Shown: piece by piece, positions 17,333 to 61,300 of the stretch
Numbering within the stretch: position 1 is the first letter of the stretch
Layout of the letters: each line of letters starts with the position of its first letter
IMG/VR virus record: IMGVR_UViG_3300045243_000070
Span: 1-64,000 of that record
Source: a virus
Reading direction: 5' to 3' (one strand)
DNA: 64,000 bases
Program-made: the position numbers and the translations under genes
The notes under the pieces: model-generated
Told to the model about the DNA's origin: nothing
Database searches by the model: none
What the model saw: only the letters and a program-made list of their open reading frames with translations

Positions 17333-17495
17333 GCGTTTAAAAACATTTATTTAATTTATTTTAGAGGTAGGCTGGAAGGGGTAGCCTTTGAGCATTTACA
17401 CGTTTTAAAAGGGGTCAATTTTGCATTCTTTGGGGGTTTATTTCGCCCCTGTAGACTCCACACATAGGGCCAATAAAGGCCTCGTAAAGAGGATT

Positions 17496-17532
17496 AAAAA
17501 AAAGGCCCATTCTGTGTAAGAATGAGCCTTTT
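17496..17532 (-). terminator. Intrinsic terminator
   Basis: AAAGGCCCATTCT/AGAATGAGCCTTT stem flanked by A/T runs. Confidence 0.78.
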
Positions 17533-17546
17533 AAATCGACTAGGTT

Positions 17547-19299: not shown

Positions 19300-19335
19300 A
19301 AAAAGCCCCATACTACCCGAGGGGTAGCAGGGGCT
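19300..19335 (-). terminator. Intrinsic terminator
   Basis: AGCCCC..CTACCC/GGGTAG..GGGGCT plus T-run. Confidence 0.7.
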
Positions 19336-19363
19336 AGGCCTATACTAGGGGTAGTGTAGGGTT

Positions 19364-19564
19364 TTAGGAGTATTTAACGTTAATCATCATATTATGGAAA
19401 CCCAGCAAAGCCCTTTTAAAATTGTCATAAAGATAGGACTGCTCAATTTCCCCCTTCCGGTTGACTACTTCAACCCAATATCCCCTAGTCCTGTCAGGGT
19501 TGAGAATTTTAGTATAGGTAATAGCCTTATTCCTGATAACCGCCTCCCTATAGGCTAGGACCAT
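19364..19564 (-). CDS. Hypothetical protein
   Basis: 66 aa. Confidence 0.7.
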   Translation of the reverse strand: MVLAYREAVIRNKAITYTKILNPDRTRGYWVEVVNRKGEIEQSYLYDNFKRALLGFHNMMINVKYS

Positions 19565-25564: not shown

Positions 25565-26112
25565 TGTTTAAATCCTCTAAAAGTCAGACTTATTCTTTCT
25601 CCACATAAAAAGCTTGCTTTCGGAATCCTATGAAGGTGGGTTTCTTGCATTCCCGCACCCATTAATAACAAGCTTCCAGACTCTAATTTCTGTTTTTCGA
25701 TTTTGGTTTTGTCATCGTTAGGACAAAACCATATTTCCCGCTCAGTGCCGAGGCTGATAACAGCTATAGGCTTATTGTCGTCTATTTCAGGTGAATCGTC
25801 CGCATGCCAACCTAGTTGGTCACGATTGTTCAGGTATAGATTTAAGAAGCAAATGTCAAAATGAACTCTCACGGAGTTAAAAAGCTCACCGAATATGAAA
25901 TCAATTGACGGAATTGAAATGGATGGCATGTAAGTACGTATTCCAACACCTTTACCATAAGTATATGGGAAGTTTCCAGCTCGATTGATGTAATACTCTG
26001 AACGAGGAGTGAACTCGTGTCTTTTCCATTGAAGATTAATTCTCAAATCTTCAAATAACCCAGTTGGGTCTTGTATAAATTTAGACGTGTATTTTACGGG
26101 TGCGTTTACCAT
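25561..26112 (-). CDS. AlkB-family 2OG-Fe(II) dioxygenase
   Basis: LNLY..GWHADD..ISLG..HRIPK..RISLTFR; probable ATG at 26112. Confidence 0.9.
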   Translation of the reverse strand: MVNAPVKYTSKFIQDPTGLFEDLRINLQWKRHEFTPRSEYYINRAGNFPYTYGKGVGIRTYMPSISIPSIDFIFGELFNSVRVHFDICFLNLYLNNRDQLGWHADDSPEIDDNKPIAVISLGTEREIWFCPNDDKTKIEKQKLESGSLLLMGAGMQETHLHRIPKASFLCGERISLTFRGFKQ

Positions 26113-29100
26113 TTTTCTTAACTCTTTTTCTGTTATACTTCCCAATCATTTTTCTAACCCAATTCTCTGAAACACCTTTAGGTATTTCTATCCGAATCAT
26201 TTTTTCAGTAGGTGTTATATCCACGGCGCACTTTAGAGTCAATATACCTGTCTTCTTATTCTCCACAGCTTCCGCACCTTTGACATCTACCTTAAAACCA
26301 TGTCTAAGGAACCAAGCATAGTCTTTGGAGTTTTTAGCTTTCTCATAGTCAGACTCCAGATAAGCTTTCATCATTTTATGTTCATCTCCCTAAGTCTGGA
26401 CGCACAATTGTGGGTATCTCCAAAAGCCCAATCAAATAAACGACCTAGCCATCCGATGTCAGCGTTACACCTCTGGCAGTGGTGGCTCGGATATTTTGGT
26501 AGATCAAATCCTAGCTTTAAATAACACGGAGTGCAATACGTGTTCATTGGGGATGTTGGTCTTCCACACTTAATACATTCTTGTCTCATACTGCCCTCAT
26601 GTACTGTACCATCTGTGGGTCCTCTTTAGACTCAATACCAGAACCTTTACACTCATCGCATACTTCTTCTCTGTCGCAGTTCTTACCACATGCCGTATCT
26701 GTGCAGTCGGGGGCATGGACTTTAATCTTTTTCGACCCCTTACATCTGGAGCAATAAACTTGGTACGAACCCATACCCCAAGTTGCGTACATTTGGTATG
26801 TTGTAGATGACGATGCCGTACCAGATGTTGTTCCCAAAAATGTTGACATATTTTCCTCTAAAAAAGAAACTTTGGTTCAGTCATAACGGGGGTGTACTCC
26901 GCTTCACGGTATCTTGCAGCCCTAAGAGTGATTCTCCCGGTTGAAAGTAGTTCCTCGCAACTGTGGCAAAGTAGATGACCAAAATCAGTCATCGAAACAG
27001 CCTTATTAAAACACGCATGCCCAACCGGGGTTTCACCAATATACCTATTTTGGTCAATGAGCCCATCGCATCTGCACATTTGGTTTACTGGGAATATTTT
27101 TAGCTTCATTAAACCTCGATTGTTTCAAAATACTTTCTATCGTCTTCGTCCCATTCATTTCTGTAGATTACTTCTGCTTCCTCGCTTCCAGCCAAGTAAG
27201 CTCTTTTAAAACACTTATGGTGATAGTAAGCATCCCACTCAAAACTGAAAGACCACTTATCGTGATCCCCGTCTTGGTGGCAAAACCAACACCCTCCTTG
27301 GCTTGGGAAAGATTTAGCCATTACTAAGCCTTTTTCTTGCTTGGTGGGACTAAGTAGAACACGTTATTGTGGTCCCTCATGTGAGTTTCCACAATCTCCT
27401 TAGTATCTTCCATCGTTGGTTGGGCGATACCAAAATTTTGTTTACAAACCGTGCAGCTGAGTAGTGTGTAATCTCCTTTTGGATTTACCTTATCTTCCAT
27501 TTTATACCCACTTAACTTTTATTTTAAAGCCTTTTGCCTTTTCAATCAACTTGGTCAGAGCGTTTGGCGATGGGGCTATTACTTCTTTCTCCTCATCAAA
27601 CGTAGTAGTCGGCCCACCATTCTCTTTGTACTTGGCTACCAGGAGGGTGATAGACTCCTGCATTCTTTTTTCCGTGAACCCAAGGTCACACATCTTTCTG
27701 ACAACCATCCCATAAGAGAAGCACACATCATTTGGAGAATCCAAATTTTGAAGCATAAGGTAAATAGCTTTTAGGTTGTCTATCTTTTTGAACTGCTCTT
27801 CGTTCATTTGTAAACCACCTTGATTTTAAGCTTCTTTAGGAAGTTGGAAATCTTCGATGTTTTTGGTTGAGTATCTTCTTTACCATCTTCGGTTATTTTT
27901 TCATCTCCAGTAATTCCCCAAGCCTTAATAAGGTCTTTACTATTTGATATTCTTTCGGCTTCTCGTAACTTATCTCTCAGGGATTTAAATTTTTCCCAAA
28001 TAGCTTTTTTCTCAACATCTGTGAAACAATGAGACTTGGGCCACGTGTCTATGTATTTCTCACCATTGGCTATCCACAACTCCTGACCGCTTTTAATGTG
28101 TTTTATAGTATGCTCGTCTAATCTCCACTTTGACGTGTCGTTTAATTCCGACAGTATGAACTTAGCTAACATTTTGTCTCCTCATATACTCAGAAAATTC
28201 TTTATCGGTCATGACAACCCAGTTTAAAATTTCTAGGTGAGCCATCAACAAGAATTTTATTTGATCTGAGCTCACTGTTTTTAATTGAGCTTCGTTTCTA
28301 CGAATCATTTCCCTTATTTCAAGTTCGCTTTTCATCTCTTGGAACCTTTACCTCGACCTTGCACTTTGCTATGCCCAAGGCTATGTCCCTTAAAGTTTCG
28401 ACAGCGTATTCCCAATTTGGGACAGCGCCTCTGTGTTCACATAAAACCATACACAGACCAGCCAGCTTTCCAGCGGTCTCCATGTTTCGTCCTTCAATCT
28501 CTTTTTTACTAATTTTAGTTTTCATCTTCTTTCATTTCCACACTATATCCAACCAAGTTTTGTTTTTCATATGTGTAAACACTTTCACCAATAGTGATTA
28601 TTAGCTCCGACTCAGTGTCTACGAGTGTGTATTTCCTGAATTGAGTAGCGTCCAAGCCGGAAGCGTGAACAGTTAGGACTTTGGAGTATGTTTTCGGTGT
28701 TTCGGTAGGTGTGGGCTCAGGTGTAGCTTCTGGCTCTTGGGGTTGCGACTTTGGAAGTGCTTGCTCCTGAGAATTGCCGTCATCGTCATGATACTTGTGG
28801 TGATTCTCATTGTTGCCACATCCCTGCGACACTATTCCTATAAGCATCAGCAAACAAACGAGCATTACATTCTTTTTCATGAGTCTCCCTTTTATGTCCA
28901 AATCCACAAATACAGCACCTAATCATCCCTCCGGTATCGTATTTGTGGTAACTGAAACTACCTTCTTGTCCACAACCAAAACAATGATCGAAAAACAATT
29001 TTCCATACATTGGGCCACATTCAACGCAAGTTTCCCAAGGAGTAACACAATGGTAGCACTCTAGCTGTCCAAAACAATCCCTAGTAACTCTCATAGAACA

Positions 29101-34739: not shown

Positions 34740-35849
34740 TTATTCCTTGTAGTGCTCCAAGAACTTGTTGGATACAACCTTGAAGGACACACGGCCCTTC
34801 ATGTAGTCGCTGTATTTCTCCACGAGCGGACGGAACACAATCCCCTCTCTTGGAGTTCCGTTGGCATAGGAGCCATCAGCCATAGCCAGCATTTCATCAA
34901 ACTTGCGTCCAGTGAAGTCGAAATTGGAGTCAATAATCTCGACAGTCTGTAACCCCAATTCTTTGGTGAAGGAAATGAACTCATCAAAGTTAAGATGTCT
35001 GCGTTCAGAGATGTTGAACACATTGAACACAAAGAAGTCAACCTCCTTCAAGCCCATCTTGTTGCCTTGGATGCCAGGACCGCAGATTTCACCTTGGACG
35101 GCGTAATTTCCTTTGGCCTTAAGCTTATCAAGGATGTTGTATTTCTGTTCCATTTGGAAGTACACGTTTGGCTTATCCCCCTCAATTGGAGCCTTGAGAG
35201 ACAGTTTGCGTGAGCAGACGTGTTGTTCACCATCCGTCAGTCCATCCGGCAAGAAGTTGATGTAGGTTGCTGAGGTTCCATCCATCTTGACGGAAGCGTA
35301 ACCCTTGACCCCATTAAGCTCTTCCAGAATTCGTGAGCAGTTTTGAAGACGTTCTTCGTCCGTAACTGACACGTATTTGGTGGGGAAGTTACCCTTAATC
35401 TTTCCATGTAGGTTGGCGGGAATAGGTTTCTCATACTTGGTAACACCAATGAGGGTGGTGATGTCATCACCGACCAGCATTCCTGCGAACCCAACGGTTC
35501 CAGTCGATAAACCTTCAATCCCAGGTTCTTTTTTTAAATCTGTCAGCTGGATGATAAGCCCCTGAGAGAGTTGTTTCTTCAGGCGAATGGTGCGGACACG
35601 GAAGTGACTCTTCCGTAAAAATTCGGACCACGGGGCTTCTGGAACTACAGTATCAATGGCAATAAAACATACTAGGTCTCCAACCTTATGCAATTCTTTC
35701 TGAACAACCACCTGCCATTCATTGTCTTCCATTTTAGCCAGTTCTATCTTATCAGCATCGGGTATTGGGCTAAGGGATTTAATTTTTTGAATAGTGGCTA
35801 AATTTTTAACCACCTCTACTGTTTCTACAGTCTCTGAAACTTCACTCAT
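34740..35849 (-). CDS. RNA ligase, DRB0094/Rnl5-type (N-terminal OB plus Rnl2-like NTase)
   Basis: IPDADKIE, LSQGL, KMDGTS, QGEICGPGIQGN, REGIV and SFKVVSN motifs. Confidence 0.9.
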   Translation of the reverse strand: MSEVSETVETVEVVKNLATIQKIKSLSPIPDADKIELAKMEDNEWQVVVQKELHKVGDLVCFIAIDTVVPEAPWSEFLRKSHFRVRTIRLKKQLSQGLIIQLTDLKKEPGIEGLSTGTVGFAGMLVGDDITTLIGVTKYEKPIPANLHGKIKGNFPTKYVSVTDEERLQNCSRILEELNGVKGYASVKMDGTSATYINFLPDGLTDGEQHVCSRKLSLKAPIEGDKPNVYFQMEQKYNILDKLKAKGNYAVQGEICGPGIQGNKMGLKEVDFFVFNVFNISERRHLNFDEFISFTKELGLQTVEIIDSNFDFTGRKFDEMLAMADGSYANGTPREGIVFRPLVEKYSDYMKGRVSFKVVSNKFLEHYKE

Positions 35850-36226
35850 TGTAAATACTCCTTTGCTTTTTGTAATAATTCAACGCTATCTCTAAATAAA
35901 CCTAATCCAGAATTACACCGATGGCATAAAATTCCACGAATATTCCCAGTCTTGTGGTCGTGGTCTATACAAGCTCTACCTTCAGTACCTTTTCCACGAA
36001 CCTCTCTTTTTAATGGGTAGCCACATATCCCGCATCTCCCACGAAAAGCTTGATATAAGGCCTCAAAATATTCCTCATCTATTCCATACTTTTTTAAATA
36101 ACCCCATTGTTTTTTATACTCACTTAAAGTTCCAGTTCGTATCATCCTACTTAAACAATGACATTTTCGACACCTTTTCCCCCATGTCATCGTGGAGCAA
36201 CCAAGGCATTTTTTCTTCTTACTCAA
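35846..36226 (-). CDS. Endonuclease VII-family homing endonuclease
   Basis: CGIC..IDHDHKTGNIRGILCHRCNSGLG. Confidence 0.88.
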   Translation of the reverse strand: MSKKKKCLGCSTMTWGKRCRKCHCLSRMIRTGTLSEYKKQWGYLKKYGIDEEYFEALYQAFRGRCGICGYPLKREVRGKGTEGRACIDHDHKTGNIRGILCHRCNSGLGLFRDSVELLQKAKEYLQ

Positions 36227-37101
36227 ATAAATGTTCCATCTCCAACGTCAATGACGTTTATTTTTTCCGTTCTGAGCATTTCAATAACACTCACCCGGTC
36301 ATCAAACCAAAATTTAATCTTGCTCTTATCCAAAAGCCTATCAATGAACTGCTTCTTCACGACAGTGTCTGGACGAGTGTCTTTAGACGGCCTCATGATG
36401 AACCTGTCTGGCTCGATATTATACTTATAAAGCCACTCTTCACGAACTTGACGATAATCCTCAGAGCACCCAGATACAATAATCAAGTCCAGCCCATTCG
36501 CTTGGTGACGAAGAACCGTTTCAATAATGTCAAGACGTGGTGCATCGTTAATGCTTTGACGAGAGAACTCGTCCCAATCCGGTTTCTTTCCAGTAGACTT
36601 ATCGACCAGATAACGTCTTTTACTGACATCACACAGAGTCCCATCAAGATCACTGACTACACAATTGTTGGTAGACCTCAATATGTTATACCTGAAAGCT
36701 GTGTTTAATATAGTGTCTTTACCAACAAAGCGTTTTCCAGAAAACTGTCTATCTAAATCCCTCTCAATACACTCTCTAACCGGGGTGTCTACTTTGACTT
36801 CCTCAAAGTCGGCATTGTACCTCTCAGCCAACACCTTGTAGGCGGTAGCATTTGACGGAGCTAAGTTCATATTATCAATGACCACGTTGTGGCCCTGGCT
36901 CAAGAGGTGTTCAACCATGAACTCATTGGCGAGGTGAATCATCTTCTCGTGTCTTGGGTCAAAATTCTCAAAATACATCATCTTGCGTAGACTGTCTTTG
37001 TTCACGCAAAACGTGTTTCGGTTTTCCTTCACGATCTTTTGAGCAATTGTGGACTTACCACTGCCTTGAAGACCTTGGAGCATCCAAATTTTTAATTTCA
37101 T
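36223..37101 (-). CDS. pseT: Polynucleotide 5'-kinase/3'-phosphatase
   Basis: GLQGSGKST P-loop; DLDGT HAD motif; FDDR. Confidence 0.92.
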   Translation of the reverse strand: MKLKIWMLQGLQGSGKSTIAQKIVKENRNTFCVNKDSLRKMMYFENFDPRHEKMIHLANEFMVEHLLSQGHNVVIDNMNLAPSNATAYKVLAERYNADFEEVKVDTPVRECIERDLDRQFSGKRFVGKDTILNTAFRYNILRSTNNCVVSDLDGTLCDVSKRRYLVDKSTGKKPDWDEFSRQSINDAPRLDIIETVLRHQANGLDLIIVSGCSEDYRQVREEWLYKYNIEPDRFIMRPSKDTRPDTVVKKQFIDRLLDKSKIKFWFDDRVSVIEMLRTEKINVIDVGDGTFI

Positions 37102-37241
37102 TTCTTCCTACCGATTTATTATAGACAACAAATAGCTAAAAATATCAACCAACCCCAGCCTTCCTTACCATACCACGCCAGAAAAATAGCTCCGGCAGTC
37201 GCCAATAGTGCAATCCACCAAGACCCTTTCATGAGTCCTCC

Positions 37242-38396
37242 TTAAGTATTTTTGCTCACCTTATGAATCATTTCCAGAAGAGAGTCATCCCGAAGCCCCA
37301 TCAAATACTCTTTCAAACTGTACAGACAGGTCTTGTTATCATAAAGAGCGAAGAGAGTGTTTGGAAAGGACTTTTTGTAAGCTTCGATAGCAAAAGCCTT
37401 CCGGTTAATTTTTACTTCCCAAGTCTGGTTATCTGCTGGCATTTCTCTCCAGTCCGCACGAATAGTATCCTCTACTTTTTGTAATCCGTCAAGTAGTTTC
37501 TGAATATGGGCTGTGTATTCTGGGAAATAGGCCAAAGTATCGTCCACTTTCCCCAACTTAATCACCTCTAAGAAGCCTTTCTCTGAAACAGAGGAAACCA
37601 TTTTAGACAAGGCTAGGTACGCAGGGTTCTTGCACTTGACACGCAAGTGGGAACCGTTGTTTTGTTCCTTTACAATCACATAACCCTCAAACGTAGGGTC
37701 TTTGGAGCTCATATCCTCAATCTCGGTCCATTCAGATACTGGAAATGTTTTGACCAAATCACACTTAAAAACATCTGCCATAGTTTGAAGCTCGTGTCTT
37801 GTTACTTCGCACAGGTTTTCGTTGCTACGAATAGTTAGAAGAGTTATTTTTGTTTCTTTGTATGGAGTAACTATTCTATTTTCTGGGCTAGTGAGCTCAA
37901 AAACATAGGTGCATCTTGGATTAAGTAATTTGTTTTCTATCAAATACTCTAACTTTGTCCCATTATCAACACCATCCATAAAAAGTTCCGCAAAGCTCTT
38001 AGAGGAACAGTTATTAACAGGCCCCTCGGCATAAATCATGTTTCTAGTGCTGAAATGCCACGAATTGGCAATACGGTCAAACCACATATTGACCATTGTT
38101 CCATCAAGTTTCTCTAAAACCAAACAACCGCTCAGGTCTTCTGGAAGTTTGTCGGCCCCGCCCTCCCCTAAGTTGAAGAAACGTGAGAACCCATAAGAAG
38201 CAATATCATAATTGTCTTTGTACAGAATAAGACCACGGCACTCCCTAACAATGGGGTCACCTTTGAACTTATAGCTGTCAATCATATCGTATGAAAATAT
38301 GAACTTGCCACCCAGCTCTTTGAAATTGATTCCAAGAGGGGCGCAAATTTCTTCGGGTGTCTTTCCAGACCGTAGAGCTTCTTGTATTTTTAACAT
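37242..38396 (-). CDS. T4 Rnl1-like RNA ligase
   Basis: RECRGLI, RFFN, EKLDGT, FELTSPENRIV, EGYVI and RVKCK motifs. Confidence 0.9.
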   Translation of the reverse strand: MLKIQEALRSGKTPEEICAPLGINFKELGGKFIFSYDMIDSYKFKGDPIVRECRGLILYKDNYDIASYGFSRFFNLGEGGADKLPEDLSGCLVLEKLDGTMVNMWFDRIANSWHFSTRNMIYAEGPVNNCSSKSFAELFMDGVDNGTKLEYLIENKLLNPRCTYVFELTSPENRIVTPYKETKITLLTIRSNENLCEVTRHELQTMADVFKCDLVKTFPVSEWTEIEDMSSKDPTFEGYVIVKEQNNGSHLRVKCKNPAYLALSKMVSSVSEKGFLEVIKLGKVDDTLAYFPEYTAHIQKLLDGLQKVEDTIRADWREMPADNQTWEVKINRKAFAIEAYKKSFPNTLFALYDNKTCLYSLKEYLMGLRDDSLLEMIHKVSKNT

Positions 38397-38401
38397 GTTA
38401 T

Positions 38402-38430
38402 ATCCTACCACAAGATAGCTACGGTGTCAA
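38402..38430 (-). promoter_or_regulatory. sigma70-type promoter giving a leaderless Rnl1 mRNA
   Basis: TTGACA-17-TAGGAT, 5-nt gap before ATG 38396. Confidence 0.75.
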
Positions 38431-39563
38431 GCATTTTCTTTTCTAAGGTCTGTGCTAGAAACATGCTCGTATTTTCGTGGTTCCAGAACCCACTCCCCAG
38501 GCAAGACCGTATCTCCTGTACCCCACAGACCTAAGGCCTTGCCGTTACTTCTTGGGAAGATGTAAAAATAGTTTCTGTTACCAGTGAACATCGAGCAAAC
38601 ATACTCAATGGACCCAGCATACTTAGGGTTCAGGATTCTCTCGTAGGTGTCATAACCAATGATGAACTTTGCATCATGAAACAGTCTGGACTTCTCTACG
38701 AATGTCGGTGCATTGGTTATCAGCATAGGCATGCCATTTTGAACCAGTCTGTCTCTAATTGAGATAAAGTCAACCGCAGGCTTGTCAACGTTGGCAATAC
38801 TTATTTCTTGAATAACTTTGCAACCCCTACGAGCAACTATTTCCATCATCTCACGATGTCCGCTATGCGTGGGATTAAAGCTTCCTGGGAATATGGCTGT
38901 ACGGCTGTCCACGTAGTTTGAGAGGTCGAGGGTATCGGTTCCGACAAAACCTTGAAACTTTATTTCCCCACTTAAGATTTTACCAAGCTTCTCGTTCTCG
39001 AACCAATCGTATTCTATGGACTGCATTACAGGCGTATCCAACCTAACCTGTAATTCAAGGTCGTGACCATTGGCGAGTTCGTTTAGAATAAGATTAGTAG
39101 CTATCTCTTCTTCCCAAATTCTAACAACCTCTGCGTTTTGATCTTTCGTACCTTTAATCTTAAAACTCATGGTGTGGGTCATATTTTTAGTCTGAAGAGC
39201 GACATAGATAGCATGCTCACGTCCCTCACGCTCAGAAGGTACACGTTGTAGGCTTGCTGTACAGGCCACACCTATGACCTCATAGTCCCCATCACGAAGC
39301 TGGAGGGCTTTTTGATAAGCCACCATAGCTAATGACCGAGCCACTTCACCGCTCACCATCTTTTCGGGAACTTTTCCCAAAAGAGTGGAGGTTTCTTTAG
39401 TGCTGTATGGGACGTACCCAGCCAGCAAAGTATTGGACCCATTACCACGGTTGAGGAGAGCCTGGAAAACTCCAGACCCTCCACCAGTCGTGATTATGAC
39501 GGCCTTATGAGTAGCTAACCCATTAAGTGTGTCGACTACTTCTTCCTGAGTCCTGATACCCAT
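38427..39563 (-). CDS. CinA/PncC-like domain fused to NMN/NaMN adenylyltransferase
   Basis: TTGGG..VPYS..VSGEVARSLA N-domain; FPGSFNPTHSGH (HxGH) and SSTDLR C-domain. Confidence 0.85.
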   Translation of the reverse strand: MGIRTQEEVVDTLNGLATHKAVIITTGGGSGVFQALLNRGNGSNTLLAGYVPYSTKETSTLLGKVPEKMVSGEVARSLAMVAYQKALQLRDGDYEVIGVACTASLQRVPSEREGREHAIYVALQTKNMTHTMSFKIKGTKDQNAEVVRIWEEEIATNLILNELANGHDLELQVRLDTPVMQSIEYDWFENEKLGKILSGEIKFQGFVGTDTLDLSNYVDSRTAIFPGSFNPTHSGHREMMEIVARRGCKVIQEISIANVDKPAVDFISIRDRLVQNGMPMLITNAPTFVEKSRLFHDAKFIIGYDTYERILNPKYAGSIEYVCSMFTGNRNYFYIFPRSNGKALGLWGTGDTVLPGEWVLEPRKYEHVSSTDLRKENA

Positions 39564-41077
39564 TAGAGACCTTTCTTAGTGACCAACCCGGCGATTTTGT
39601 GATACATCTGAGTCGAAATAGCGTCCCCATGAGCCGGGACAATAGTCATTAAGGTATTGATACGGGCTTTGAGTTCATCAAATGTAAGCCATTTGATATC
39701 CACGGGGCCTTTATCATAAACAACCTGCAACATGTTCTTATCGACTTCTGTTTCCGCAGGATAAACCTTAAGGCTCAAAGTGTCCTTATCGGCTGCGACT
39801 TTCATAATGCCGGGGAGCGAATACTTCCCCTTGTCGTCCGAAGGGCGCTTCATGATGTCAAGAGTCGCTCCAGTATTGTAGGTAATGTGGCTCAGCTTAG
39901 TAGCCATCGAGAGAGTATCCCGGTTTAGTTTCTGAAGCAACCCGGCTCCCATTCCGAAAGCGATATTCTCGGCGCTGAAGCCAGCCTTCTCAGCAGCGTC
40001 CAAGATTTTACCAATCTCGGTGATGGTGATTCCATCACCCTGAATGACCGCAGCGTTGTTGATAACTTTGTATCCCTTTTTATTGAGGACGGTTCCAAAA
40101 GCTTTCTCAGCAGCGTGTAGGCCTTGAAGAACACATTCCACGGGGTCGCCCGAATCTGGTCGAAGAACCCACAGGCCGAACTTCCCAGCAAACTTCTGGG
40201 CCACGGCTGGAACAATCTTATCCAAAAAGTTGGTGTAGTTGTAGCTATCACCAACGGTGGCGAAGATTCCAAGCTTATTGACCAGTTCGTTTTGTCCAAA
40301 CATCTGCATCATGCGTTCCACAGCTTCTTGTTCTGTGGCATAGCTTGTCATGACCGAGTGCTCAGTAGCTGGGATGCTGGTAGCTACGGGACGGCCCTCG
40401 TTCAGGTGGAACTGGGCGTAGTAAGCAGCCGACATAGTGTCCGACCCGCCGAAGTTAAGTAGGTGAGCAACACCGCCGATTACCGCTTGCTCTTGCGAGG
40501 TGCATCCACGATACCCAAAGTCGTGGAGACGGCTGTCGAGCTTCCAGAAGCTCTCAGGGTCAACCGTTTTTTGAAAAAATCCCTCGATGAGGGTTCTGGC
40601 GTGACGGCTGAGGGTAGCCACTGTCGTGGGATACCAAATCATCGTCAGCAAGGTCTCAAGATAGGTGCAAAGATGGGCGTAGGGGGCTTCCGCAGTGATT
40701 TGATAGATAGGAGTATGTGGGTAGATAACCGAACCCTCTTCGAGAGCTTCCACTTTGATTGGGAAGTAACCGTTGTTTTCTTTTATGAATTTCAAGAACA
40801 GGTTTTTGGGGAAGGGATATGGAGTGAAAGCAGCATTGTGGGTTTGGAAGAACTTGTCGGCTTCCTCGACTTCTTCCACAGTCCACTTATGATTCAAAAC
40901 GTTTTCAACGATGTAGCGGATTCCAAAAAACACGATGCGGTCATCGTCAATGCCGGGATAAGCTTTTCGTAGCTCCCCGTAGGCCACCATCTTTTCTGCA
41001 TTCGGGTACATCATGTAATGACCTGCCTTGTAGCTATCCGTCCGAACCGGGAATGGAATATCGTTGATGCTTTTCAT
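39563..41077 (-). CDS. nadV: Nicotinamide phosphoribosyltransferase (NAMPT)
   Basis: TDSYKAGH, LHDFGYRG, PATEHS, RPDSGDP, IQGDG, FGMGAGLLQK. Confidence 0.93.
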   Translation of the reverse strand: MKSINDIPFPVRTDSYKAGHYMMYPNAEKMVAYGELRKAYPGIDDDRIVFFGIRYIVENVLNHKWTVEEVEEADKFFQTHNAAFTPYPFPKNLFLKFIKENNGYFPIKVEALEEGSVIYPHTPIYQITAEAPYAHLCTYLETLLTMIWYPTTVATLSRHARTLIEGFFQKTVDPESFWKLDSRLHDFGYRGCTSQEQAVIGGVAHLLNFGGSDTMSAAYYAQFHLNEGRPVATSIPATEHSVMTSYATEQEAVERMMQMFGQNELVNKLGIFATVGDSYNYTNFLDKIVPAVAQKFAGKFGLWVLRPDSGDPVECVLQGLHAAEKAFGTVLNKKGYKVINNAAVIQGDGITITEIGKILDAAEKAGFSAENIAFGMGAGLLQKLNRDTLSMATKLSHITYNTGATLDIMKRPSDDKGKYSLPGIMKVAADKDTLSLKVYPAETEVDKNMLQVVYDKGPVDIKWLTFDELKARINTLMTIVPAHGDAISTQMYHKIAGLVTKKGL

Positions 41078-41090
41078 CTTACTTCTCCTT

Positions 41091-41582
41091 TTATTTGTTT
41101 AGAAGCTCAACACAATTTAAAATAATCTGATTGTGGTCATCGTGAATCTCTTCTTTTGTGAAGTTCCAGACATCATCTACCTTCACCCAAAAAGCCCTCG
41201 TTGCATCGTCCCCGCCGTTTAACTCAAACATGTTATCAACTACGAAAACATGGGCAGTGGTTATCTTCCTATTCCCAACCGTTGTTCTGGATGGGTCATC
41301 AAAGTGAAGATACCCAATATACTTTGATGAAGTAACAGATAGGGATTTTCTCAATGAAACCCCAGCCTCTTCCTCCAACTCCCTATGAGCTGCCATGAGT
41401 GACGTTTCATCGTACTCGACAAACCCGCCGGGCAAAGCGTACTTCTTGTTATCCCCTCTTTCAATCATTGCGACCACAAGCCCGTGTGTTGGGTCTTTGC
41501 AGAAAACCACAGCATCTGCACAGACCATAATGACAGGGTACTTCTCACCGGGCTTGAACTCGTAGGTTATTAAATCTTTCAT
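41091..41582 (-). CDS. Nudix hydrolase, ADP-ribose pyrophosphatase-like
   Basis: ALPGGFVEYDETSLMAAHRELEEEAG, GGDDA, DHNQI. Confidence 0.88.
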   Translation of the reverse strand: MKDLITYEFKPGEKYPVIMVCADAVVFCKDPTHGLVVAMIERGDNKKYALPGGFVEYDETSLMAAHRELEEEAGVSLRKSLSVTSSKYIGYLHFDDPSRTTVGNRKITTAHVFVVDNMFELNGGDDATRAFWVKVDDVWNFTKEEIHDDHNQIILNCVELLNK

Positions 41583-43892: not shown

Positions 43893-44691
43893 GGCAATTA
43901 TTCCTTTTCTACGTCTCTTATAAAAATTATTTTTTCTACTGAGGACTTCCAATTACGTTTAAACTCGTCTAACTGTTCTTGAGTTAGACCCTTTTTCATA
44001 ACCAGAACAGCAGGTTCATTATCATCTTCAAAACAATAACAAATATCTCCAAGTGGATTTTCAGCCAAACACTCGACACAACCGGAACCGTTACTTCCCT
44101 TTGAGAAGTGGTAGTCCTTTTCGTGGTGACAGAACCCACACTTCATATTGAATCAACTTTTTTCTCCGGCTTCTGTATGTACCACGAATGACCGCCGTAC
44201 CCGCTGAAGTAGATTCGACCATCAACGTGCCCGTGATTTCCACTAACTCCTCCATACTTAACATCAAACCCGCAGGAATACTCTTCGCCGATTACTTCAA
44301 AAAACGCCGAATCTTTTCCATTTTCTCGAAGGACTATATCTGTAATCTTGTTTTCTGGGCACTCATCAAGACCCATAGCTCGGTCCATTGAATCCCCGTG
44401 ATCTTTTAGTATTCCACCAATCCACGCTTCTTTACCTTCAACGAACTGGCTCCAAAGTGGGTAAGCCCTACCATTTACTGTTATCAAAAAACACCTCAGT
44501 TATTTATTTTGCTTCCCTTAATTTTCATAAGGTGCTCAGTCAGATGGTCGTTCTCTTCTTTTGAAAACTCGGAGTTTTCCACCTCTTGAAAAACAACTCC
44601 GTGAACGGCTGACATATGCTCCAACACATCAATTTCCTCTAAGAGTTCTTTGCACAGATTGCACTGGTGAGTAGCTTCCATAGGTTCTCCT

Positions 44692-45327
44692 CTATATTTC
44701 AAAGGTAACTGCCGGATTAACTGGTTTGTAGCGAACATCACAACTTGAGGCATTTAAAAACGTAGTGGTTTTTGAGTCATTAAACCATCCAAACTCCATC
44801 CGTCCATAACCTTCGTGTATGTGACCAAATACATTAAACCTTGGTTTAGCCTTAAGGCAACGGTTGAATAGTGACTCACTACCAACATACCCGTCTCTTT
44901 CTACTTTGTCAAGCACTTTTTTTGGCGGACCGTGGGTAATCAGCATATCCAAGTCTTCTGGTATCTTAGAAAATACCTCTACAAGGTCGTGGTCTGGCTT
45001 CATAAAGGCCCAACGTCCATATTCGGGAACCCAAGGGGAGCCATAAAATCTCTTTCCATCTATTTCAATAAACTCGTCTATAAGCAGAGTTGCATGGGTA
45101 AGTTCTTGTTTGCACATCTGGGGAAGTTCTTCACAAATGAAGTCATGGTTGCCTGGGACAAGCAGGATTTTTTTTGCCGGGAGGGTTCCAAGCCATATGT
45201 TGAATTTCATTAGCTCAACTAATGAGCCACCCATAGAAAAATCTCCGCAATGCAAAAGTACGTCACATTCTGGTATATGCAAACTTTCATGTTTATTGTG
45301 CGTGTCACTAATTGCGACAATCCTCAA
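44692..45327 (-). CDS. Calcineurin-like metallophosphoesterase
   Basis: SDTH, GDFS, GNHD, THGPP, GHIHE. Confidence 0.9.
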   Translation of the reverse strand: MRIVAISDTHNKHESLHIPECDVLLHCGDFSMGGSLVELMKFNIWLGTLPAKKILLVPGNHDFICEELPQMCKQELTHATLLIDEFIEIDGKRFYGSPWVPEYGRWAFMKPDHDLVEVFSKIPEDLDMLITHGPPKKVLDKVERDGYVGSESLFNRCLKAKPRFNVFGHIHEGYGRMEFGWFNDSKTTTFLNASSCDVRYKPVNPAVTFEI

Positions 45328-45866
45328 AGTCCGCTCCTATGCCTTACCAGCCTGTCTAGGTAGGCCATAAATTCTTGATATGTTTTATCCAACTTTGCAG
45401 AATTACAGAATCTACAGCAACTAACACAATTTCCTCTTACATATCCCTTAGAACTATCAACCCTATCAATACCATTATATTTAATCTCAACTCTTCTTTT
45501 TTCTGGTCCATAAGTATTGTCTGGCTCACACCCACAATAGTGACAGTTACCTTTTATTAGAGCCACAGTCTCATCTATTGCTAACGAGAAACTCTTTCCC
45601 CTAAGTTTGGCTTGGGCCTTTATGTTACCTGCCTTGGCTCTAAATGAAGCCAATTCTGGGGGATATTTTTTGTTTCCATGACCCCACGTAAAATTTAAAC
45701 ACCCGCAAGACTTTACAAGACCTCTAAGCAGATGAGAAGTCGTAACGTCTCTATTCATTCCGCAAACACACAGACACTTCCAAACAACACCTATTTTATC
45801 TCTTTTCTTTTTCATTACCAATAAACTACCAAATTTTAAACCTTCAAGTTTTGGGGAAACGCTCAT
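45324..45866 (-). CDS. HNH endonuclease
   Basis: WKCLCVCG..SCGC N-domain; CHYCG..GIDRVDS..NCVSCCRFCNSAK. Confidence 0.85.
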   Translation of the reverse strand: MSVSPKLEGLKFGSLLVMKKKRDKIGVVWKCLCVCGMNRDVTTSHLLRGLVKSCGCLNFTWGHGNKKYPPELASFRAKAGNIKAQAKLRGKSFSLAIDETVALIKGNCHYCGCEPDNTYGPEKRRVEIKYNGIDRVDSSKGYVRGNCVSCCRFCNSAKLDKTYQEFMAYLDRLVRHRSGL

Positions 45867-46033
45867 TTTTGTTTCTTTTTGGTATCAATCTTTTGGTTAA
45901 GCTTTGCGCCCTCTTTACGAGCCAATAAAGTTGCTTGTTCTTCCGTTATCAGCCCCTGATTAATTGCTTCAACCAGTAGGTCAACGGTTACGTTTATCTT
46001 TCTAATTTTTTTATTTAATATTTCTTTTTTCAT
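45863..46033 (-). CDS. 56-aa basic hypothetical protein
   Basis: ATG 46033; TGA overlaps HNH ATG. Confidence 0.6.
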   Translation of the reverse strand: MKKEILNKKIRKINVTVDLLVEAINQGLITEEQATLLARKEGAKLNQKIDTKKKQK

Positions 46034-46051
46034 TTTAAATTTCTTTCTATA

Positions 46052-46226
46052 ATGTTTTACGTCTAAACACCAAGTAAGAGTCCATCGGTTTGCACACCTA
46101 GACCAGGAGGTCCGACCCTCTTAAGTTCCCATAAACTGGACTTAGGCCCAGTCAGCGTCAGGTCTTGCAAGTTTCCCTCCGCTTTATGAGTCACCTACTT
46201 ACATACAGTGCTTAGACATCAAACAT
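46052..46226 (-). ncRNA. Unassigned multi-branched structured RNA (element C)
   Basis: About 20-bp closing helix with G-U pairs plus several internal helices; no ORF. Confidence 0.7.
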
Positions 46227-46228
46227 CT

Positions 46229-46402
46229 TAAGTCACCCAAAACTGGGGTGGGGCTACTGTAGTGCGTTGCCGGGTCTCATGAAAACCCAACCGTGGGACT
46301 CGAACCCACATCTCCAGCCTTTGTGCTGGTGTCCTACCATTAGACGAGAAATGCACTATGAGGCTGCTCCCGCTTTGACCAACCCCATTTTCCGGTGACT
46401 TA
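46229..46402 (-). ncRNA. Structured RNA with tRNA D/anticodon/T arms on a long non-tRNA stem (element B)
   Basis: GTCTAATGGTAGGAC D arm, CCAGC-ACAAAG-GCTGG arm, GTGGG-TTCGAGT-CCCAC T arm; no acceptor stem; outer stem TAAGTCACC/GGTGACTTA. Confidence 0.78.
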
Positions 46403-46413
46403 CTTATGGACAC

Positions 46414-46442
46414 AGTGTACTACAAAACAAACAACTTGTCAA
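46414..46442 (-). promoter_or_regulatory. sigma70-type promoter for elements B and C
   Basis: TTGACA-17-TACACT; +1 a few nt before the outer stem. Confidence 0.82.
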
Positions 46443-46454
46443 GTAAAAAAAGAA

Positions 46455-46546
46455 ACCTGGGGTGGGGATTGCAACCCACTAGTGGAGGGCTATCCCCCAC
46501 ACCTAACAACTGAACGCCCATGTGTGTCTTACCACACCGCCCAGGC
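46455..46546 (-). ncRNA. Non-canonical tRNA-like RNA with long variable arm (element A)
   Basis: Acceptor GCCTGGG/CCCAGGT, D arm GTGT/ACAC, variable hairpin, T stem GTGGG/CCCAC; aberrant anticodon arm and T loop. Confidence 0.72.
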
Positions 46547-46567
46547 TTTCCCTACTAAGGAAATACA

Positions 46568-46596
46568 ACTATACTCCAAAACATTCTTTTTGTCAA
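46568..46596 (-). promoter_or_regulatory. sigma70-type promoter for element A
   Basis: TTGACA-17-TATAGT. Confidence 0.8.
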
Positions 46597-46618
46597 TACA
46601 AAAAACAGACAAAATCCC

Positions 46619-46629
46619 TAAATTTTAGC
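46619..46629 (+). promoter_or_regulatory. Putative late promoter motif
   Basis: TAAATTTTAGC upstream of protease. Confidence 0.6.
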
Positions 46630-46661
46630 CTTTAAGAGGCTCAATTATCAAGGAGACCGTC

Positions 46662-47480
46662 TTGCCCAACCCAGAAACAAAAGAAGAATTTGAAAAGTTC
46701 GTAGATAGCAATCCCAATAAGGCCTGGAAATTTTACCTACCTTTTGGTGATGAGTATATTGAAAAATCTCTTACGTCAGAAAAACAAGACACTGACGAAA
46801 AGAGTTGGAAGATCGGTGGGATTGCTTCAAGCAACGAAGAAGATTTGGAAGCTGAAATTGTTGTTCCAGAAGGAATTGATGTCAGCTATTTTTTGAAGTG
46901 GGGTTGGTTCAACTCCGAACACAAAAAAGGCGCTGCATATAAAGTTGGGATTCCAACCAAAGCGATGTGTACGAGAAAAGGTCTTGAAGTTGAAGGATAT
47001 CTTTTAAAAGATATGCCCGAAGCGCAGGGCATTTATACCTTAATGAAGACGTTGAGAAAGGGAGATCACAGACGCTCAGTTGGTTTTTCCATCGAAGGAA
47101 AAACTGTCCTTCAACAAGGAAAAAGAATTCTTAAAAGCTTCCTCATCGACATTGCCATTACAGCCAACCCAGTCAACCCTACAACCTATGCCGACCTTGT
47201 GAAATCACTTAAAACATGCTCTACAGATAACTCACTGGAATCCATGTCTTACCTCTCTACCGATAAGGCTTTAGAGGCTGGATATGCTGTAGATGGTCAA
47301 ACCGGAGGGGACGCTTTGAGGACTCAAGACCTCGAAAGAAAGCTTAAAATCCTCACAAATAAGAGCTTTTCACCGGAAGATGCCTTGGAATACGTGAAGC
47401 TTAAGGCCGGGGTTACTGACGATGTAGCCAAGAAGATTCTAAAATATTCAGACCTTCTTAAGAAGCTGAAGGGTCAATAA
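46662..47480 (+). CDS. Prohead protease
   Basis: IGGIAS..DLEAE, NSEH, GFSIEG, AITANPVN; TTG start with AAGGAG. Confidence 0.9.
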   Translation: MPNPETKEEFEKFVDSNPNKAWKFYLPFGDEYIEKSLTSEKQDTDEKSWKIGGIASSNEEDLEAEIVVPEGIDVSYFLKWGWFNSEHKKGAAYKVGIPTKAMCTRKGLEVEGYLLKDMPEAQGIYTLMKTLRKGDHRRSVGFSIEGKTVLQQGKRILKSFLIDIAITANPVNPTTYADLVKSLKTCSTDNSLESMSYLSTDKALEAGYAVDGQTGGDALRTQDLERKLKILTNKSFSPEDALEYVKLKAGVTDDVAKKILKYSDLLKKLKGQ

Positions 47481-59443: not shown

Positions 59444-61300
59444 ATGGCACTTCAAGCATTTTTCAATGGAAAGGTTTATACCCAACCAAGTTCAGCCACT
59501 GAAATTAATTCCAGTGCGCTAAACCCACTTCAGCTTGGTTATTCGGGAATCGCTGCTGTTATCGGTTCTTGCGTCAGCGGTGAACCTTTTATCCCTCAAT
59601 TATTTACTTCCCCAGGTCAGTTAAAAGCTGCTCTCGGCTCAGGCCCAGCTTATGATGCTGCTCGTGTTTGCTTCACTCCAACAACTCAAATTGTTGAAGG
59701 TAACTCAGTTCGCCCTCAAATCGTGTATGTGGTTCGTGCGGACAATGCCACACAATCTTCATATACAGCTGCTGACTCAAATTCAGCTGACACTATCGTT
59801 TTTACTTCTACGGACTTTGGAGCTCAAACAAATTCAATCAGCGTTCAAGTTACTGGTGGCTCATTTCCAGTTCTAACCGACCCGGTTGTTGCTCCAACTG
59901 GTATTAATCCAGTCACGGTTGTTATTCAAAACAGCTACAATGATTCACTTGAAACGTATTCCAATATTGGACTTGGGGTATTGTTTGGCATCCAATATAC
60001 TGGGACAGGCACACCAGCGACAATGTCAATTAGCGCTACTAGCTTAACAACTACCATCACTGGTGGGCCTGGAAGCGAAGAGCTTACTGTTCCTTTCGCC
60101 ACCTACGGAACTGTTCAGCAAGTGGTTGATTATATCAACTCTCTTGGACTTCCTTACGATATCACAAACGTTGCTCCAAATGCTTCGACTTTCAACGCCG
60201 TTGATTTGGACCACTTCACAAACTTTGACGTGTTAACAGACGCTGTTGGAGTCTATGCTGTTACTACAGCTATCTTGTCCACTATCAACCCAGTTTCTGG
60301 AAACGTTCAAGTATCTTTAAGCTCCACAACAACTCAACGTCCACCAGCTAACATTTCAACTCCAGTCAATCTTTCTGGTGGAAGCACTACGAACCAATCC
60401 TCTTTCAACAACATTCAAGCAGCCTTGAGTGCGTTGACTTTAACAAGAATTAACTTTTTGTGCGGGTCTATGGATGCTGACCCTACCTTAACGTCAGTCG
60501 ATGCCGGAAGCTTGTTCGCAGCCTTCGTTCAAAACATGCAAGGAAAGAATGAGTGCAGAGCTCATCTTGGGCTAAGCGCAAACATTACCTTGGCTGTTGC
60601 CAAGGCTTATGCTGCTCAATTGAACTCACAGATGACAAACCTTTGGTTCCAAGGGCCTATCATGCCCAACGATCAGGGAGTTACAACCACGTATTCTCCT
60701 TGGATGCAAGCTGCTATGGCGACTGGAATGCAAGCCGGAATGCCAATTGGCTCTTCCTTCGTTCAAAAGTCATTCAACGTTCTTGGATACTCTTACAACA
60801 CTTCAACTGATGGTTTTGACATCATTAACAATGCTGATGCCATCATCTTGGACAGATTGTCTTTGGTTCGCTTCAACGGAGCCACATCAACCTGGAATTG
60901 TGTTCGTGCTCTTTCTTCTTACGTCAGCGACTCCAACTCCTTCAACATCGAACCTGGACTTCAATCAGCCGTAAACTATGCCGTGTACAACATCCGTCAG
61001 GACGTTGAACAAAAATTCCTTGGGGCAAGAACATTGTTCACAGAGGCTGGTTCGACTGCCGATTCTATCCAAAGAGAAGTTGTTGCTTATGGAGCGTTGC
61101 TGGAAGCAGCTAACGTTATCACAAAAGCAACGGTTCTTGTCAATAACCAAAAACAAACACTGCCTGCGTTGGTTATCGACAGCATAACAATTACGGACGA
61201 CACAGCCCGTCTTCGTTATGGTATTAGACCAATCGGTTCCTTGAACTTTATCTTCCACACAGTTTCATTAAACGCTAATTCACAAGTTGCCACAGCTTAA
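59444..61300 (+). CDS. Tail sheath protein
   Basis: 618 aa, directly before tube gene; sheath-like N- and C-termini (IRPIGSLNFI). Confidence 0.9.
   Translation: MALQAFFNGKVYTQPSSATEINSSALNPLQLGYSGIAAVIGSCVSGEPFIPQLFTSPGQLKAALGSGPAYDAARVCFTPTTQIVEGNSVRPQIVYVVRADNATQSSYTAADSNSADTIVFTSTDFGAQTNSISVQVTGGSFPVLTDPVVAPTGINPVTVVIQNSYNDSLETYSNIGLGVLFGIQYTGTGTPATMSISATSLTTTITGGPGSEELTVPFATYGTVQQVVDYINSLGLPYDITNVAPNASTFNAVDLDHFTNFDVLTDAVGVYAVTTAILSTINPVSGNVQVSLSSTTTQRPPANISTPVNLSGGSTTNQSSFNNIQAALSALTLTRINFLCGSMDADPTLTSVDAGSLFAAFVQNMQGKNECRAHLGLSANITLAVAKAYAAQLNSQMTNLWFQGPIMPNDQGVTTTYSPWMQAAMATGMQAGMPIGSSFVQKSFNVLGYSYNTSTDGFDIINNADAIILDRLSLVRFNGATSTWNCVRALSSYVSDSNSFNIEPGLQSAVNYAVYNIRQDVEQKFLGARTLFTEAGSTADSIQREVVAYGALLEAANVITKATVLVNNQKQTLPALVIDSITITDDTARLRYGIRPIGSLNFIFHTVSLNANSQVATA

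What the first reader, a model, noticed from the sequence alone, without database searches (positions are those of the whole stretch)
46052..46226. Element C: 175-nt multi-junction RNA of unknown family
Seen on the minus strand: closing helices AUGUUU/AAACAU and AUGUCUAAGCACUG/UGGUGUUUAGACGU; inner helices UAGGU/ACUUA, CUCAUAAA/UUUAUGGG, AGG-GAAA-CUU, CUGGGC-CUAA-GUCCAG, GGACC-UCCU-GGUCU and GGU-GUGCAA-ACC. I recognise no RNase P, tmRNA, SRP or 6S signature. It could also be a leader for the downstream operon.
Basis: partly seen in the sequence, partly recalled or inferred. Interest (0 to 1): 0.7.

Follow-up and report, generated by a model that had tools for sequence, protein, structure and literature searches.

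The report
Orphan structured RNA in phage leader
A 175-base stretch of a soil phage genome folds into an unusually stable, well-defined branched RNA next to transfer-RNA-like genes, but no relative of it was found, so it stays a plausible RNA element of unknown function.

Summary
Window 46052-46226 (minus strand) folds at -64.7 kcal/mol, and 0 of 200 and 0 of 500 dinucleotide shuffles fold as well (z -4.4 and -4.7). All 11 helices have mean pair probability 0.86-0.98, and the fold survives inside the full 431-nt leader. The plus strand reaches only -40.6.

No Rfam 15 family matches, even at E<=10.

The record is a 73-kb fragment of an SPO1-like (Herelleviridae-like) soil phage. Element C is the second stem-closed module of an early-type transcript: promoter-like site 46442-46414, tRNA-like Element B, then C, then ORF56, an HNH endonuclease and a phosphoesterase. 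Further downstream lie NAD-salvage and RNA-repair genes.

The one close relative (G001) conserves Elements A and B. At the matching spot it lacks C, ORF56, HNH and the phosphoesterase. Elsewhere in the same cluster it has a different ~200-nt stem-closed multi-junction module.

No homologue of C turned up by BLAST, word scans or a single-sequence covariance model, so there is no covariation evidence.

Best reading (0.4): a processed stable small RNA of a phage tRNA-like RNA cluster, comparable to T4 RNAC/RNAD. The main rival (0.3) is a cis-acting leader or processing domain. Interest is moderate.

The parts
46052..46226 (-). Element C, a 175-nt stem-closed multi-junction RNA domain. The fold may extend by one G-U pair to 46051-46227.
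46198..46226 (-). 5' strand of the terminal helix: 6 bp, a 1x1 mismatch, 14 bp, a small internal loop, then 5 bp, giving 25 pairs with the 3' strand.
   Evidence: pairs 1-6/170-175, 8-21/155-168 and 25-29/149-153, with mean probabilities 0.86, 0.95 and 0.93.
46052..46078 (-). 3' strand of the terminal helix.
46122..46197 (-). Arm I (element positions 30-105): two stacked helices that open into two hairpins. One hairpin carries a 12-nt loop; the other is an 8-bp hairpin with a CUAA loop.
   Evidence: helix probabilities 0.93-0.98.
46107..46120 (-). Arm II: a 4-bp hairpin with a 6-nt loop.
   Evidence: probability 0.90.
46079..46104 (-). Arm III: a 6+3-bp hairpin with a GUGCAA loop.
   Evidence: probabilities 0.87 and 0.95.
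46229..46402 (-). Element B, the upstream neighbour on the same predicted transcript. It is a stem-closed tRNA-like RNA whose core is at 46293-46345, with a D arm, an anticodon arm carrying a 6-nt loop, and a T arm. It has no standard acceptor stem.
   Evidence: tRNA model positions 10-63, 33.3 bits; no ARAGORN call; z -3.89; the listed matches under it are mostly tRNA-Gln, tRNA-Sec or tRNA-OTHER genes, or unannotated.
46414..46442 (-). Sigma-70-type promoter-like site (TTGACA, 17 nt, TACACT; 10 of 12). It is the only such site upstream of B and C.
45863..46033 (-). ORF56, starting 18 nt after Element C. It has a weak ribosome-binding site and no homologue, so it is doubtful.
45324..45866 (-). 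Free-standing HNH endonuclease gene.
44692..45327 (-). Metallophosphoesterase gene. It is the last gene of the segment that the relative G001 lacks at this position.

Best explanation
Element C is a real, autonomously folding RNA domain read from the minus strand. It has no promoter or terminator of its own. It is the second of two abutting stem-closed modules in a transcript that starts at the host-type promoter-like site 46442-46414. That transcript runs through the tRNA-like Element B, then C, then ORF56, the HNH endonuclease and the phosphoesterase. I infer that C is cut out of this precursor at or near its 25-pair terminal helix and accumulates as a stable small RNA. It would then be a lineage-specific member of the phage's cluster of tRNA-like and other structured RNAs, the same kind of product as T4 RNAC/RNAD or the highly expressed non-coding regions beside Kayvirus tRNA genes. 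The HNH homing-type endonuclease beside it would favour inheritance of this RNA segment, as SegB does for the T4 tRNA region (recalled). Shown here: the fold, its strand specificity, its independence of flanking sequence, its transcriptional context by sequence, and its absence from known families. Inferred: expression, processing, stability and any trans-acting role.
For: Fold quality. z is -4.41 and -4.74, with 0 of 200 and 0 of 500 shuffles as stable. All helices have probability 0.86-0.98. In the 431-nt leader, 63 of 64 pairs keep probability above 0.5. The two strands differ, at -64.7 against -40.6.

Non-coding setting. The 628-bp gap 46034-46661 holds no ORF longer than 77 aa. Two strong promoter-like sites lie on the minus strand.

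RNA-gene locus. Neighbours A and B are tRNA-like, and both are conserved in the relative G001 (local alignment against shuffles: z 4.3 and 3.9 for A, 5.9 for B). G001 carries 18 tRNA genes at the same genomic position.

Analogue not followed by an ORF. G001's second cluster holds a ~200-nt module X with a 21-pair terminal helix and four arms. X lies between A' and B', not before an ORF, so modules of this build occur as RNA-cluster members rather than mRNA leaders.

No regulatory coupling. The ribosome-binding region of ORF56 is unpaired in the full-leader fold.

Precedents. T4 RNAC and RNAD lie in the tRNA region together with the segB endonuclease gene, and their roles are unknown (PMC3014915 and PMC9697503, passages read). 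In Kayvirus, two non-coding regions beside tRNA genes take 10.6% of counts (PMC7698491, passages read).
Against: No homologue was found anywhere, so there is no covariation.

The closest relative lacks C at the syntenic site. C shows no sequence likeness to X, Y, A or B (z <= 1.4).

C has no T arm or other feature that known tRNA-processing enzymes would recognise.

There are no expression data. No RNA run is listed, and the two DNA runs are identical to the window.

About ten other windows of this same 64 kb, most of them probably coding, fold comparably well after correction for composition.
Confidence: 0.4

Rival explanations
1. C is a cis-acting leader domain of the ORF56/HNH/phosphoesterase segment. 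It would be a structural insulator or processing site, for example a double-strand-specific RNase cutting the 25-pair helix. This would separate the upstream tRNA-like RNA from the mRNA and set the stability, and so the expression level, of the endonuclease message.
For: C ends 18 nt before the ORF56 start. No promoter-like site lies between B and C and no terminator-like site follows C. C belongs to the ~1.5-kb block (C, ORF56, HNH, phosphoesterase) that G001 lacks between B' and the 85-aa ORF homologue, so it may travel with the endonuclease gene. A near-perfect helix of about two turns is the usual kind of RNase III substrate, and RNase III processing of early mRNA in the SPO1-like phage SP82 is on record (both recalled, not tested).
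Against: A processing hairpin does not need three further well-defined arms. The ribosome-binding site and start codon are not sequestered. ORF56 is doubtful. 20 loci holding relatives of the HNH or phosphoesterase genes show no C-like element.
Confidence: 0.3
2. C has no function as a structure. It is spacer or decayed sequence, for instance a remnant left by the insertion or by lost RNA genes, and it happens to fold well.
For: It is a single-genome orphan, absent from the nearest relative at this site. About 10 of 2554 background windows fold as well for their composition. Long G-U-tolerant helices are common by chance.
Against: 0 of 700 shuffles in total reach its energy. Only 4 of 500 are as well-defined. 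It sits exactly between an RNA module and the first ORF, abuts B with a 1-nt spacer, and its fold ignores the flanks. The strand asymmetry agrees with the direction of transcription.
Confidence: 0.2
3. C is a catalytic or ligand-sensing RNA of a new class. It could be a self-cleaving element that releases the endonuclease mRNA, or a riboswitch for the downstream operon.
For: It is a compact multi-junction fold with a 12-nt loop and several 4-6-nt loops left unpaired. It lies directly upstream of a homing-type endonuclease gene. NAD-salvage and RNA-repair genes follow on the same strand.
Against: No ribozyme or riboswitch model matches at E<=10. No expression platform is present: no terminator-like site and no occlusion of the ribosome-binding site. 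There is no conservation that would point to a core.
Confidence: 0.07

Closest known systems
Phage T4 RNAC and RNAD (species 1 and 2 RNAs)
   Same: They are small structured RNAs of 139 and 119 nt, encoded on the same strand as tRNA genes with a homing endonuclease gene (segB) inside the cluster. Their function is unknown (PMC3014915 and PMC9697503, passages read). RNAC folds with z -4.57, comparable to C.
   Different: There is no sequence or structure match. Model R1 scores at most 7.1 bits in the T4 region and 3.5 bits over rnaC. RNAC carries a T arm and C has none. C is followed by protein genes rather than ending a tRNA cluster.
Non-coding regions lncRNA1 and lncRNA2 of Kayvirus vB_SauM-515A1 (Herelleviridae)
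   Same: They come from the same virus family by capsid likeness. They are 525-570-bp non-coding stretches next to tRNA genes on the gene strand, one driven by an early promoter, and they are very highly expressed with unknown function (PMC7698491, passages read; loci).
   Different: R1 finds no match, best 9.3 bits. The two phosphatase-type genes downstream are not detectably related. No defined secondary structure is published in the passages I read.
Module X of relative phage G001 (L006 about 1408-1610, minus strand)
   Same: It sits in the same kind of RNA cluster, flanked by A- and B-family RNAs. It is ~200 nt, with a 21-pair bulged terminal helix closing a multi-helix junction, and its ensemble is well defined.
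   Different: It shows no sequence likeness (z 0.41) and no significant R1 match (at most 7.6 bits). It has four arms rather than three, and it lies before B' rather than after B.
Lariat-capping (GIR1) ribozyme upstream of intron homing-endonuclease genes (recalled)
   Same: It is a branched RNA of about 180 nt placed immediately upstream of a homing endonuclease ORF.
   Different: No Rfam ribozyme model matches C. GIR1 is known only from eukaryotic twin-ribozyme introns. No intron context is present here.

Membership tests
Any Rfam 15 family (4227 models) | Covariance-model score at or above the family's gathering score. | tested here: not met
   whole window: the only hit is the tRNA model at 46293-46345., at E<=10 over 45800-46800 and 44400-46300: nothing overlaps 46052-46226.
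tRNA-like RNAs (as neighbours A and B, and T4 RNAC) | A T arm and D arm recognised by the tRNA model. | tested here: not met
   the tRNA model matches only Element B. ARAGORN finds none in the window.
Group I intron (HNH genes are often intron-borne) | A conserved core detectable by the Rfam intron model, with a host gene split into flanking exons. | tested here: not met
   Searches give no intron match at E<=10 across 44400-46800. The 5' and 3' ends of C pair with each other in a 25-pair helix, unlike an intron core.
6S RNA | A long rod with a large central bubble, and a match to the 6S model. | tested here: not met
   No 6S match at E<=10. The interior is a three-arm junction with no bubble.
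Y RNA / YrlA | An adjacent Ro/Rsr (TROVE) gene, and a match to the YrlA model. | tested here: not met
   No TROVE match in the 72,981-bp record, with controls positive in 2 of 14 genomes. The record is only 42% complete. No YrlA match in C.
phi29-type packaging RNA | A match to the pRNA model, in a phi29-like podovirus with protein-primed DNA. | tested here: not met
   No match at E<=10. The capsid protein is closest to SPO1-like myoviruses.
Riboswitch or attenuator leader | An expression platform: an alternative terminator, or sequestration of the ribosome-binding site. | tested here: not met
   No terminator-like site lies between 46226 and 45866. The ORF56 ribosome-binding site and start are unpaired in the full-leader fold.
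Stable RNAs co-encoded with phage tRNA clusters (T4 RNAC/RNAD type) | Encoded within or beside a tRNA or tRNA-like gene cluster on the same strand. | tested here: met
   B abuts C. A and B are tRNA-like. An 18-tRNA array lies at the syntenic site of G001.
Stable RNAs co-encoded with phage tRNA clusters (T4 RNAC/RNAD type) | Accumulates as a discrete processed RNA during infection. | not testable with these tools
   No RNA run is listed for this DNA.

The most novel reading that the evidence does not exclude
C is the first member of a new class of phage RNA that travels with a free-standing HNH homing endonuclease inside a tRNA-like RNA cluster and acts on RNA. One form would be a self-processing element that frees the endonuclease/phosphoesterase message from the tRNA-like precursor, a bacterial-virus counterpart of the lariat-capping ribozyme. 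The other would be a decoy RNA working with the phage's RNA-repair and NAD-salvage genes against host RNA-targeting defences.
Probability: 0.07. Interest if true: 0.8.

Novelty: new variant of a known kind. Interest (0 to 1): 0.35.

Why it matters
Phage tRNA regions have been known for decades to hold extra stable RNAs of unknown role. T4 RNAC and RNAD are still unexplained, and Kayvirus non-coding regions take a tenth of phage reads. This soil phage lineage has a compact cluster of such RNAs at the head of an operon that carries NAD-salvage and tRNA-repair genes, which are typical counter-defence cargo. Element C is its best-folded non-tRNA-like member. If C is expressed and processed, it gives a small, clean model for what these companion RNAs do. 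If it is not, it shows that a z-score near -4.5 in one genome is not enough to call an RNA gene.

Tried and rejected
**Known families.** Rfam at gathering score and at E<=10 gave nothing on C. ARAGORN found no tRNA or tmRNA in the window.

**Sequence homologues**
- blastn against 50,697 phage records: no match with 2.2 kb.
- With the 628-bp gap at E<=5: 99 records. The 30 listed all fall in query 312-375, which is Element B. None of the listed rows touches C, and 69 rows were not listed.
- Local blastn against L002/L003 and then 13 loci found nothing in C.

**Exact-word scans**
- A 20-mer from C: 0 viral contigs.
- An 18-mer from C: 1 viral, 38 metagenome and 11 genome loci. Model R1 matched only the word itself or 30 nt or less around it, or unrelated short hairpins, with a best score of 13.5 bits. 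The one example I read lies in an open frame that I read as a membrane pyrophosphatase gene (recalled from its residues, not tested). I count these as chance.

**Single-sequence covariance model R1**
- 13 loci, 224,783 bases: only C itself.
- Whole records of five relatives: 0 of 5.
- 2 loci holding HNH relatives, plus SP-10: best 10.5 bits.
- 18 loci holding phosphoesterase relatives: 0 matches.
- 72 loci from an A-family motif scan: 1 GC-rich hairpin at E 0.37. Only G001 was a true A-family hit.
- G001's 7.7 kb without filters: best 11.8 bits, and that hit is the A-family element A', not a C relative.

**Relatives of the phage.** The protease alignment found none in metagenome contigs.

**Sequencing runs.** No RNA holder is listed. 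Two soil DNA runs hold the stretch. The second covers C with 0 differing letters, so there is no natural variation to test.

**Tetraloop-receptor lead.** C contains GAAA, CCUAAG and UAUGG, which recall the GAAA tetraloop and its 11-nt receptor (consensus recalled). The GAAA hairpin has probability 0.00, and the two receptor halves sit in a hairpin loop and a helix strand. I dropped the lead.

**B-C pairing.** A 15-bp pairing with 6 G-U is possible between B and C (46276-46290 with 46121-46135). It is one of four helices of that length on the minus strand, and two more are longer, so I treat it as chance.

**Other checks**
- The global alignment of the two phages' gaps was uninformative.
- The Kayvirus and window phosphatase genes are not detectably related, so no synteny claim is made.
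- The catalogue of 10,006 candidate viral RNAs (PMC10690425) could be read only as main-text passages. Its supplementary tables are closed, so I cannot say whether C is listed there.

Full report
**Observation**

As RNA it folds at -64.7 kcal/mol. Two hundred dinucleotide-preserving shuffles average -46.2 (sd 4.2), giving z -4.41, and none folds as well. My own repeat with 500 shuffles gave z -4.74, again with none as stable. The ensemble is tight: mean base-pair distance is 11.3 against 41.4+-14.9, and 4 of 500 shuffles are as low.

The fold has 64 pairs in 11 helices with mean pair probabilities of 0.86-0.98. A terminal helix of 6+14+5 pairs closes a three-arm junction, and the first arm branches again. 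AGG-GAAA-CUU (probability 0.00) and GGACC-UCCU-GGUCU (0.06) are not, and five helices were missed.

Eleven pairs are G-U, and the complementary strand folds at only -40.6. The structure therefore belongs to the minus-strand transcript.

Two cautions apply. After regressing energy on base composition over 2554 windows of 175 nt across both strands of the window, the exactly bounded element has residual z -2.99 and about ten arbitrary windows do better. Uninterrupted G-U-tolerant helices of 14 pairs spanning 100-260 nt are also not rare.

**Setting**

The window is part of a 72,981-bp virus record, estimated 42% complete. Its major capsid protein is closest, at 41-45% identity among the 25 listed of 779 matching records, to SPO1-like Bacillus myoviruses of the Herelleviridae.

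Element C lies in a 628-bp gap (46034-46661) between two blocks. The plus-strand head genes are a protease at 46662 and the capsid protein at 49175. The other block is a long minus-strand set of genes:
- ORF56, which is doubtful: it has no homologue in the phage records and a weak ribosome-binding site
- a free-standing HNH endonuclease and a metallophosphoesterase
- DUF3310 and YopX proteins
- NUDIX, nicotinamide phosphoribosyltransferase and a cytidylyltransferase-like protein
- a T4-type RNA ligase 1, polynucleotide kinase-phosphatase and a second RNA ligase
- a sigma-70-like factor

The minus strand of the gap carries promoter-like sites at 46596-46568 (11 of 12) and 46442-46414 (10 of 12), plus a third at 46651-46622 (10 of 12). 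No such site lies between 46414 and C, and no terminator-like site lies after C.

Downstream of the second site lies Element B (46229-46402). It is a stem-closed RNA whose core matches the tRNA model over positions 10-63, with a 6-nt anticodon loop and no standard acceptor stem. ARAGORN does not call it.

C begins one or two bases after B ends. In a fold of the whole 431-nt leader, B and C remain separate domains, 63 of C's 64 pairs keep probability above 0.5, and the ORF56 start region stays unpaired. By sequence, then, C is the second module of an early-type transcript that runs on into protein genes.

**Known families**

Rfam 15 gives nothing on C at gathering score or at E<=10. That excludes detectable membership of RNase P, tmRNA, SRP, 6S, group I introns, pRNA, YrlA, and the known riboswitches and self-cleaving ribozymes. 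No TROVE (Ro/Rsr) gene is present in the record.

**Search for relatives**

No relative of C was found.
- blastn against 50,697 phage records found nothing with 2.2 kb. With the gap alone, the listed matches covered only Element B's tRNA-like core.
- A 20-mer from C had no match in viral contigs. An 18-mer matched 1, 38 and 11 loci in the three collections. A covariance model built from C alone (R1) matched those loci only over the word itself or 30 nt or less around it, or over unrelated short hairpins. The one I read lies in an open frame that I read as a membrane pyrophosphatase gene, recalled from its residues and not tested.
- R1 also found nothing beyond noise in:
  - 13 loci of capsid and protease relatives
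  - five whole relative records
  - 2 loci holding HNH relatives plus SP-10
  - 18 loci holding phosphoesterase relatives
  - 72 loci from an A-family motif scan
- A single-sequence model is weak, and the big collections could only be scanned for exact words. This is absence of evidence within those limits.
- Two soil DNA runs hold the stretch. The second covers C without a single difference. There is no natural variation to test, and no RNA run is listed.

**The one close relative**

Record G001 (protease 73% and capsid 81% identical) is informative.

Directly upstream of its protease it has promoter-like sequences, an Element-A-like RNA, a further structured stretch and then 18 tRNA genes on the same strand.

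Beyond the array it has a second cluster:
- a consensus-like promoter
- A' (L006 1613-1805)
- a ~200-nt module X
- B' (tRNA model positions 8-63, again with a 6-nt anticodon loop)
- about 35 bases later, the homologue of window ORF 44496-44753

Local alignment against 300 shuffles shows that A matches A' (z 4.3) and A'' (z 3.9), and that B matches B' (z 5.9). C matches none of X, Y, A', A'', B', A or B (z <= 1.4).

At the syntenic position G001 therefore lacks the block C-ORF56-HNH-phosphoesterase, about 1.5 kb. C is either cargo that arrived or stayed with the homing-type endonuclease, or it was lost in G001.

X has a well-defined 21-pair terminal helix closing four arms. It shows that stem-closed multi-junction modules of this size are regular members of these clusters, and in X's case the module is not placed in front of an ORF.

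**Precedents**

T4 encodes RNAC (139 nt) and RNAD (119 nt) at the end of its tRNA cluster, with the segB homing endonuclease gene inside it. Their roles are unknown (PMC3014915 and PMC9697503, passages read). RNAC folds with z -4.57 and has a T arm. R1 does not match either.

In the Herelleviridae phage vB_SauM-515A1, two non-coding regions beside tRNA genes take 10.6% of normalised counts, function unknown (PMC7698491, passages read). R1 does not match them.

**Mechanism**

My best reading (0.4) is that C is released from the B-C precursor and persists as a stable small RNA of this cluster. Its terminal helix would serve as the processing and protective handle. The neighbouring HNH enzyme would bias inheritance of the segment, as SegB does in T4 (recalled). 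The fold, the strand, the modularity and the context are shown. Expression, processing and any trans role are inferred.

The main rival (0.3) is a purely cis role, as an insulator or double-strand RNase site setting the fate of the endonuclease message. The three extra arms and the free ribosome-binding site speak somewhat against it.

A functionless fold (0.2) cannot be excluded for a single-genome orphan.

A new ribozyme or riboswitch (0.07) has no positive evidence.

**Verdict**

Without a homologue or expression data, the element is a good candidate rather than an established RNA gene. It is best filed as a new variant of the loosely defined kind 'extra structured RNAs of phage tRNA clusters'. 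Interest is moderate, at 0.35.

Noticed in passing
window 46229-46402 (-); L006 about 1255-1409 (-): Element B and its counterpart B' in the relative phage both have a tRNA-like core with D, anticodon and T arms. Both have a 6-nt rather than 7-nt anticodon loop and no standard acceptor stem, and ARAGORN calls neither. The odd loop is kept in both phages, which suggests a tRNA mimic or decoy rather than a dead tRNA.
   Followed up: partly
window about 46442-46556 (-); L002 about 3625-3800 (-); L006 1613-1805 (-): There is an 'A family' of stem-closed RNAs that share a 5' GGGCGG(U/C)GUGGU motif. Two of them also share a 3' CCCC(A/G)CCCCA motif. Each follows a consensus-like promoter. The window copy ends in a U run and contains a T-arm-like hairpin. 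No Rfam match was found, and only these two phages turned up among 73 motif hits in IMG/VR.
   Followed up: partly
L002 171-3474 (-) = L006 3822-7125: The relative phage G001 has 18 tRNA genes, plus one more seen only by the tRNA model at 1365-1436, exactly where the window has only Elements A-C. Several gaps of 200-500 nt in that array were not examined.
   Followed up: no
window 34740-41582 (-): This block carries NUDIX, nicotinamide phosphoribosyltransferase, a cytidylyltransferase-like protein, T4-type RNA ligase 1, polynucleotide kinase-phosphatase and a second RNA ligase. It looks like an NAD-salvage plus tRNA-repair (counter-defence) block on the same strand as the RNA cluster.
   Followed up: partly
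window 17547-18416 (-) and 25561-26145 (-): An ArdC-N plus zincin metallopeptidase protein and a 2OG-Fe(II) oxygenase (AlkB-like) add further likely anti-restriction or repair cargo.
   Followed up: no
window 61076-61250, 12926-13100, 19176-19450, 17426-17650 (all -): These 175-nt windows fold more stably for their composition than Element C's exact window (residual z -3.8 to -3.0). I did not check whether they are coding or RNA elements.
   Followed up: no
L002 3475-3619 (-): A structured stretch Y lies between the A-like RNA and the first tRNA of G001 (z -3.96). It contains a CUGAUGAG word, but I saw no complete hammerhead core and it has no Rfam match.
   Followed up: partly
L145, L146 (IMG/VR contigs of 395 kb and 149 kb): The closest relatives of the window's metallophosphoesterase (45% identity) also sit among tRNA genes (tRNA-Asp and tRNA-Leu within 3 kb).
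   Followed up: no
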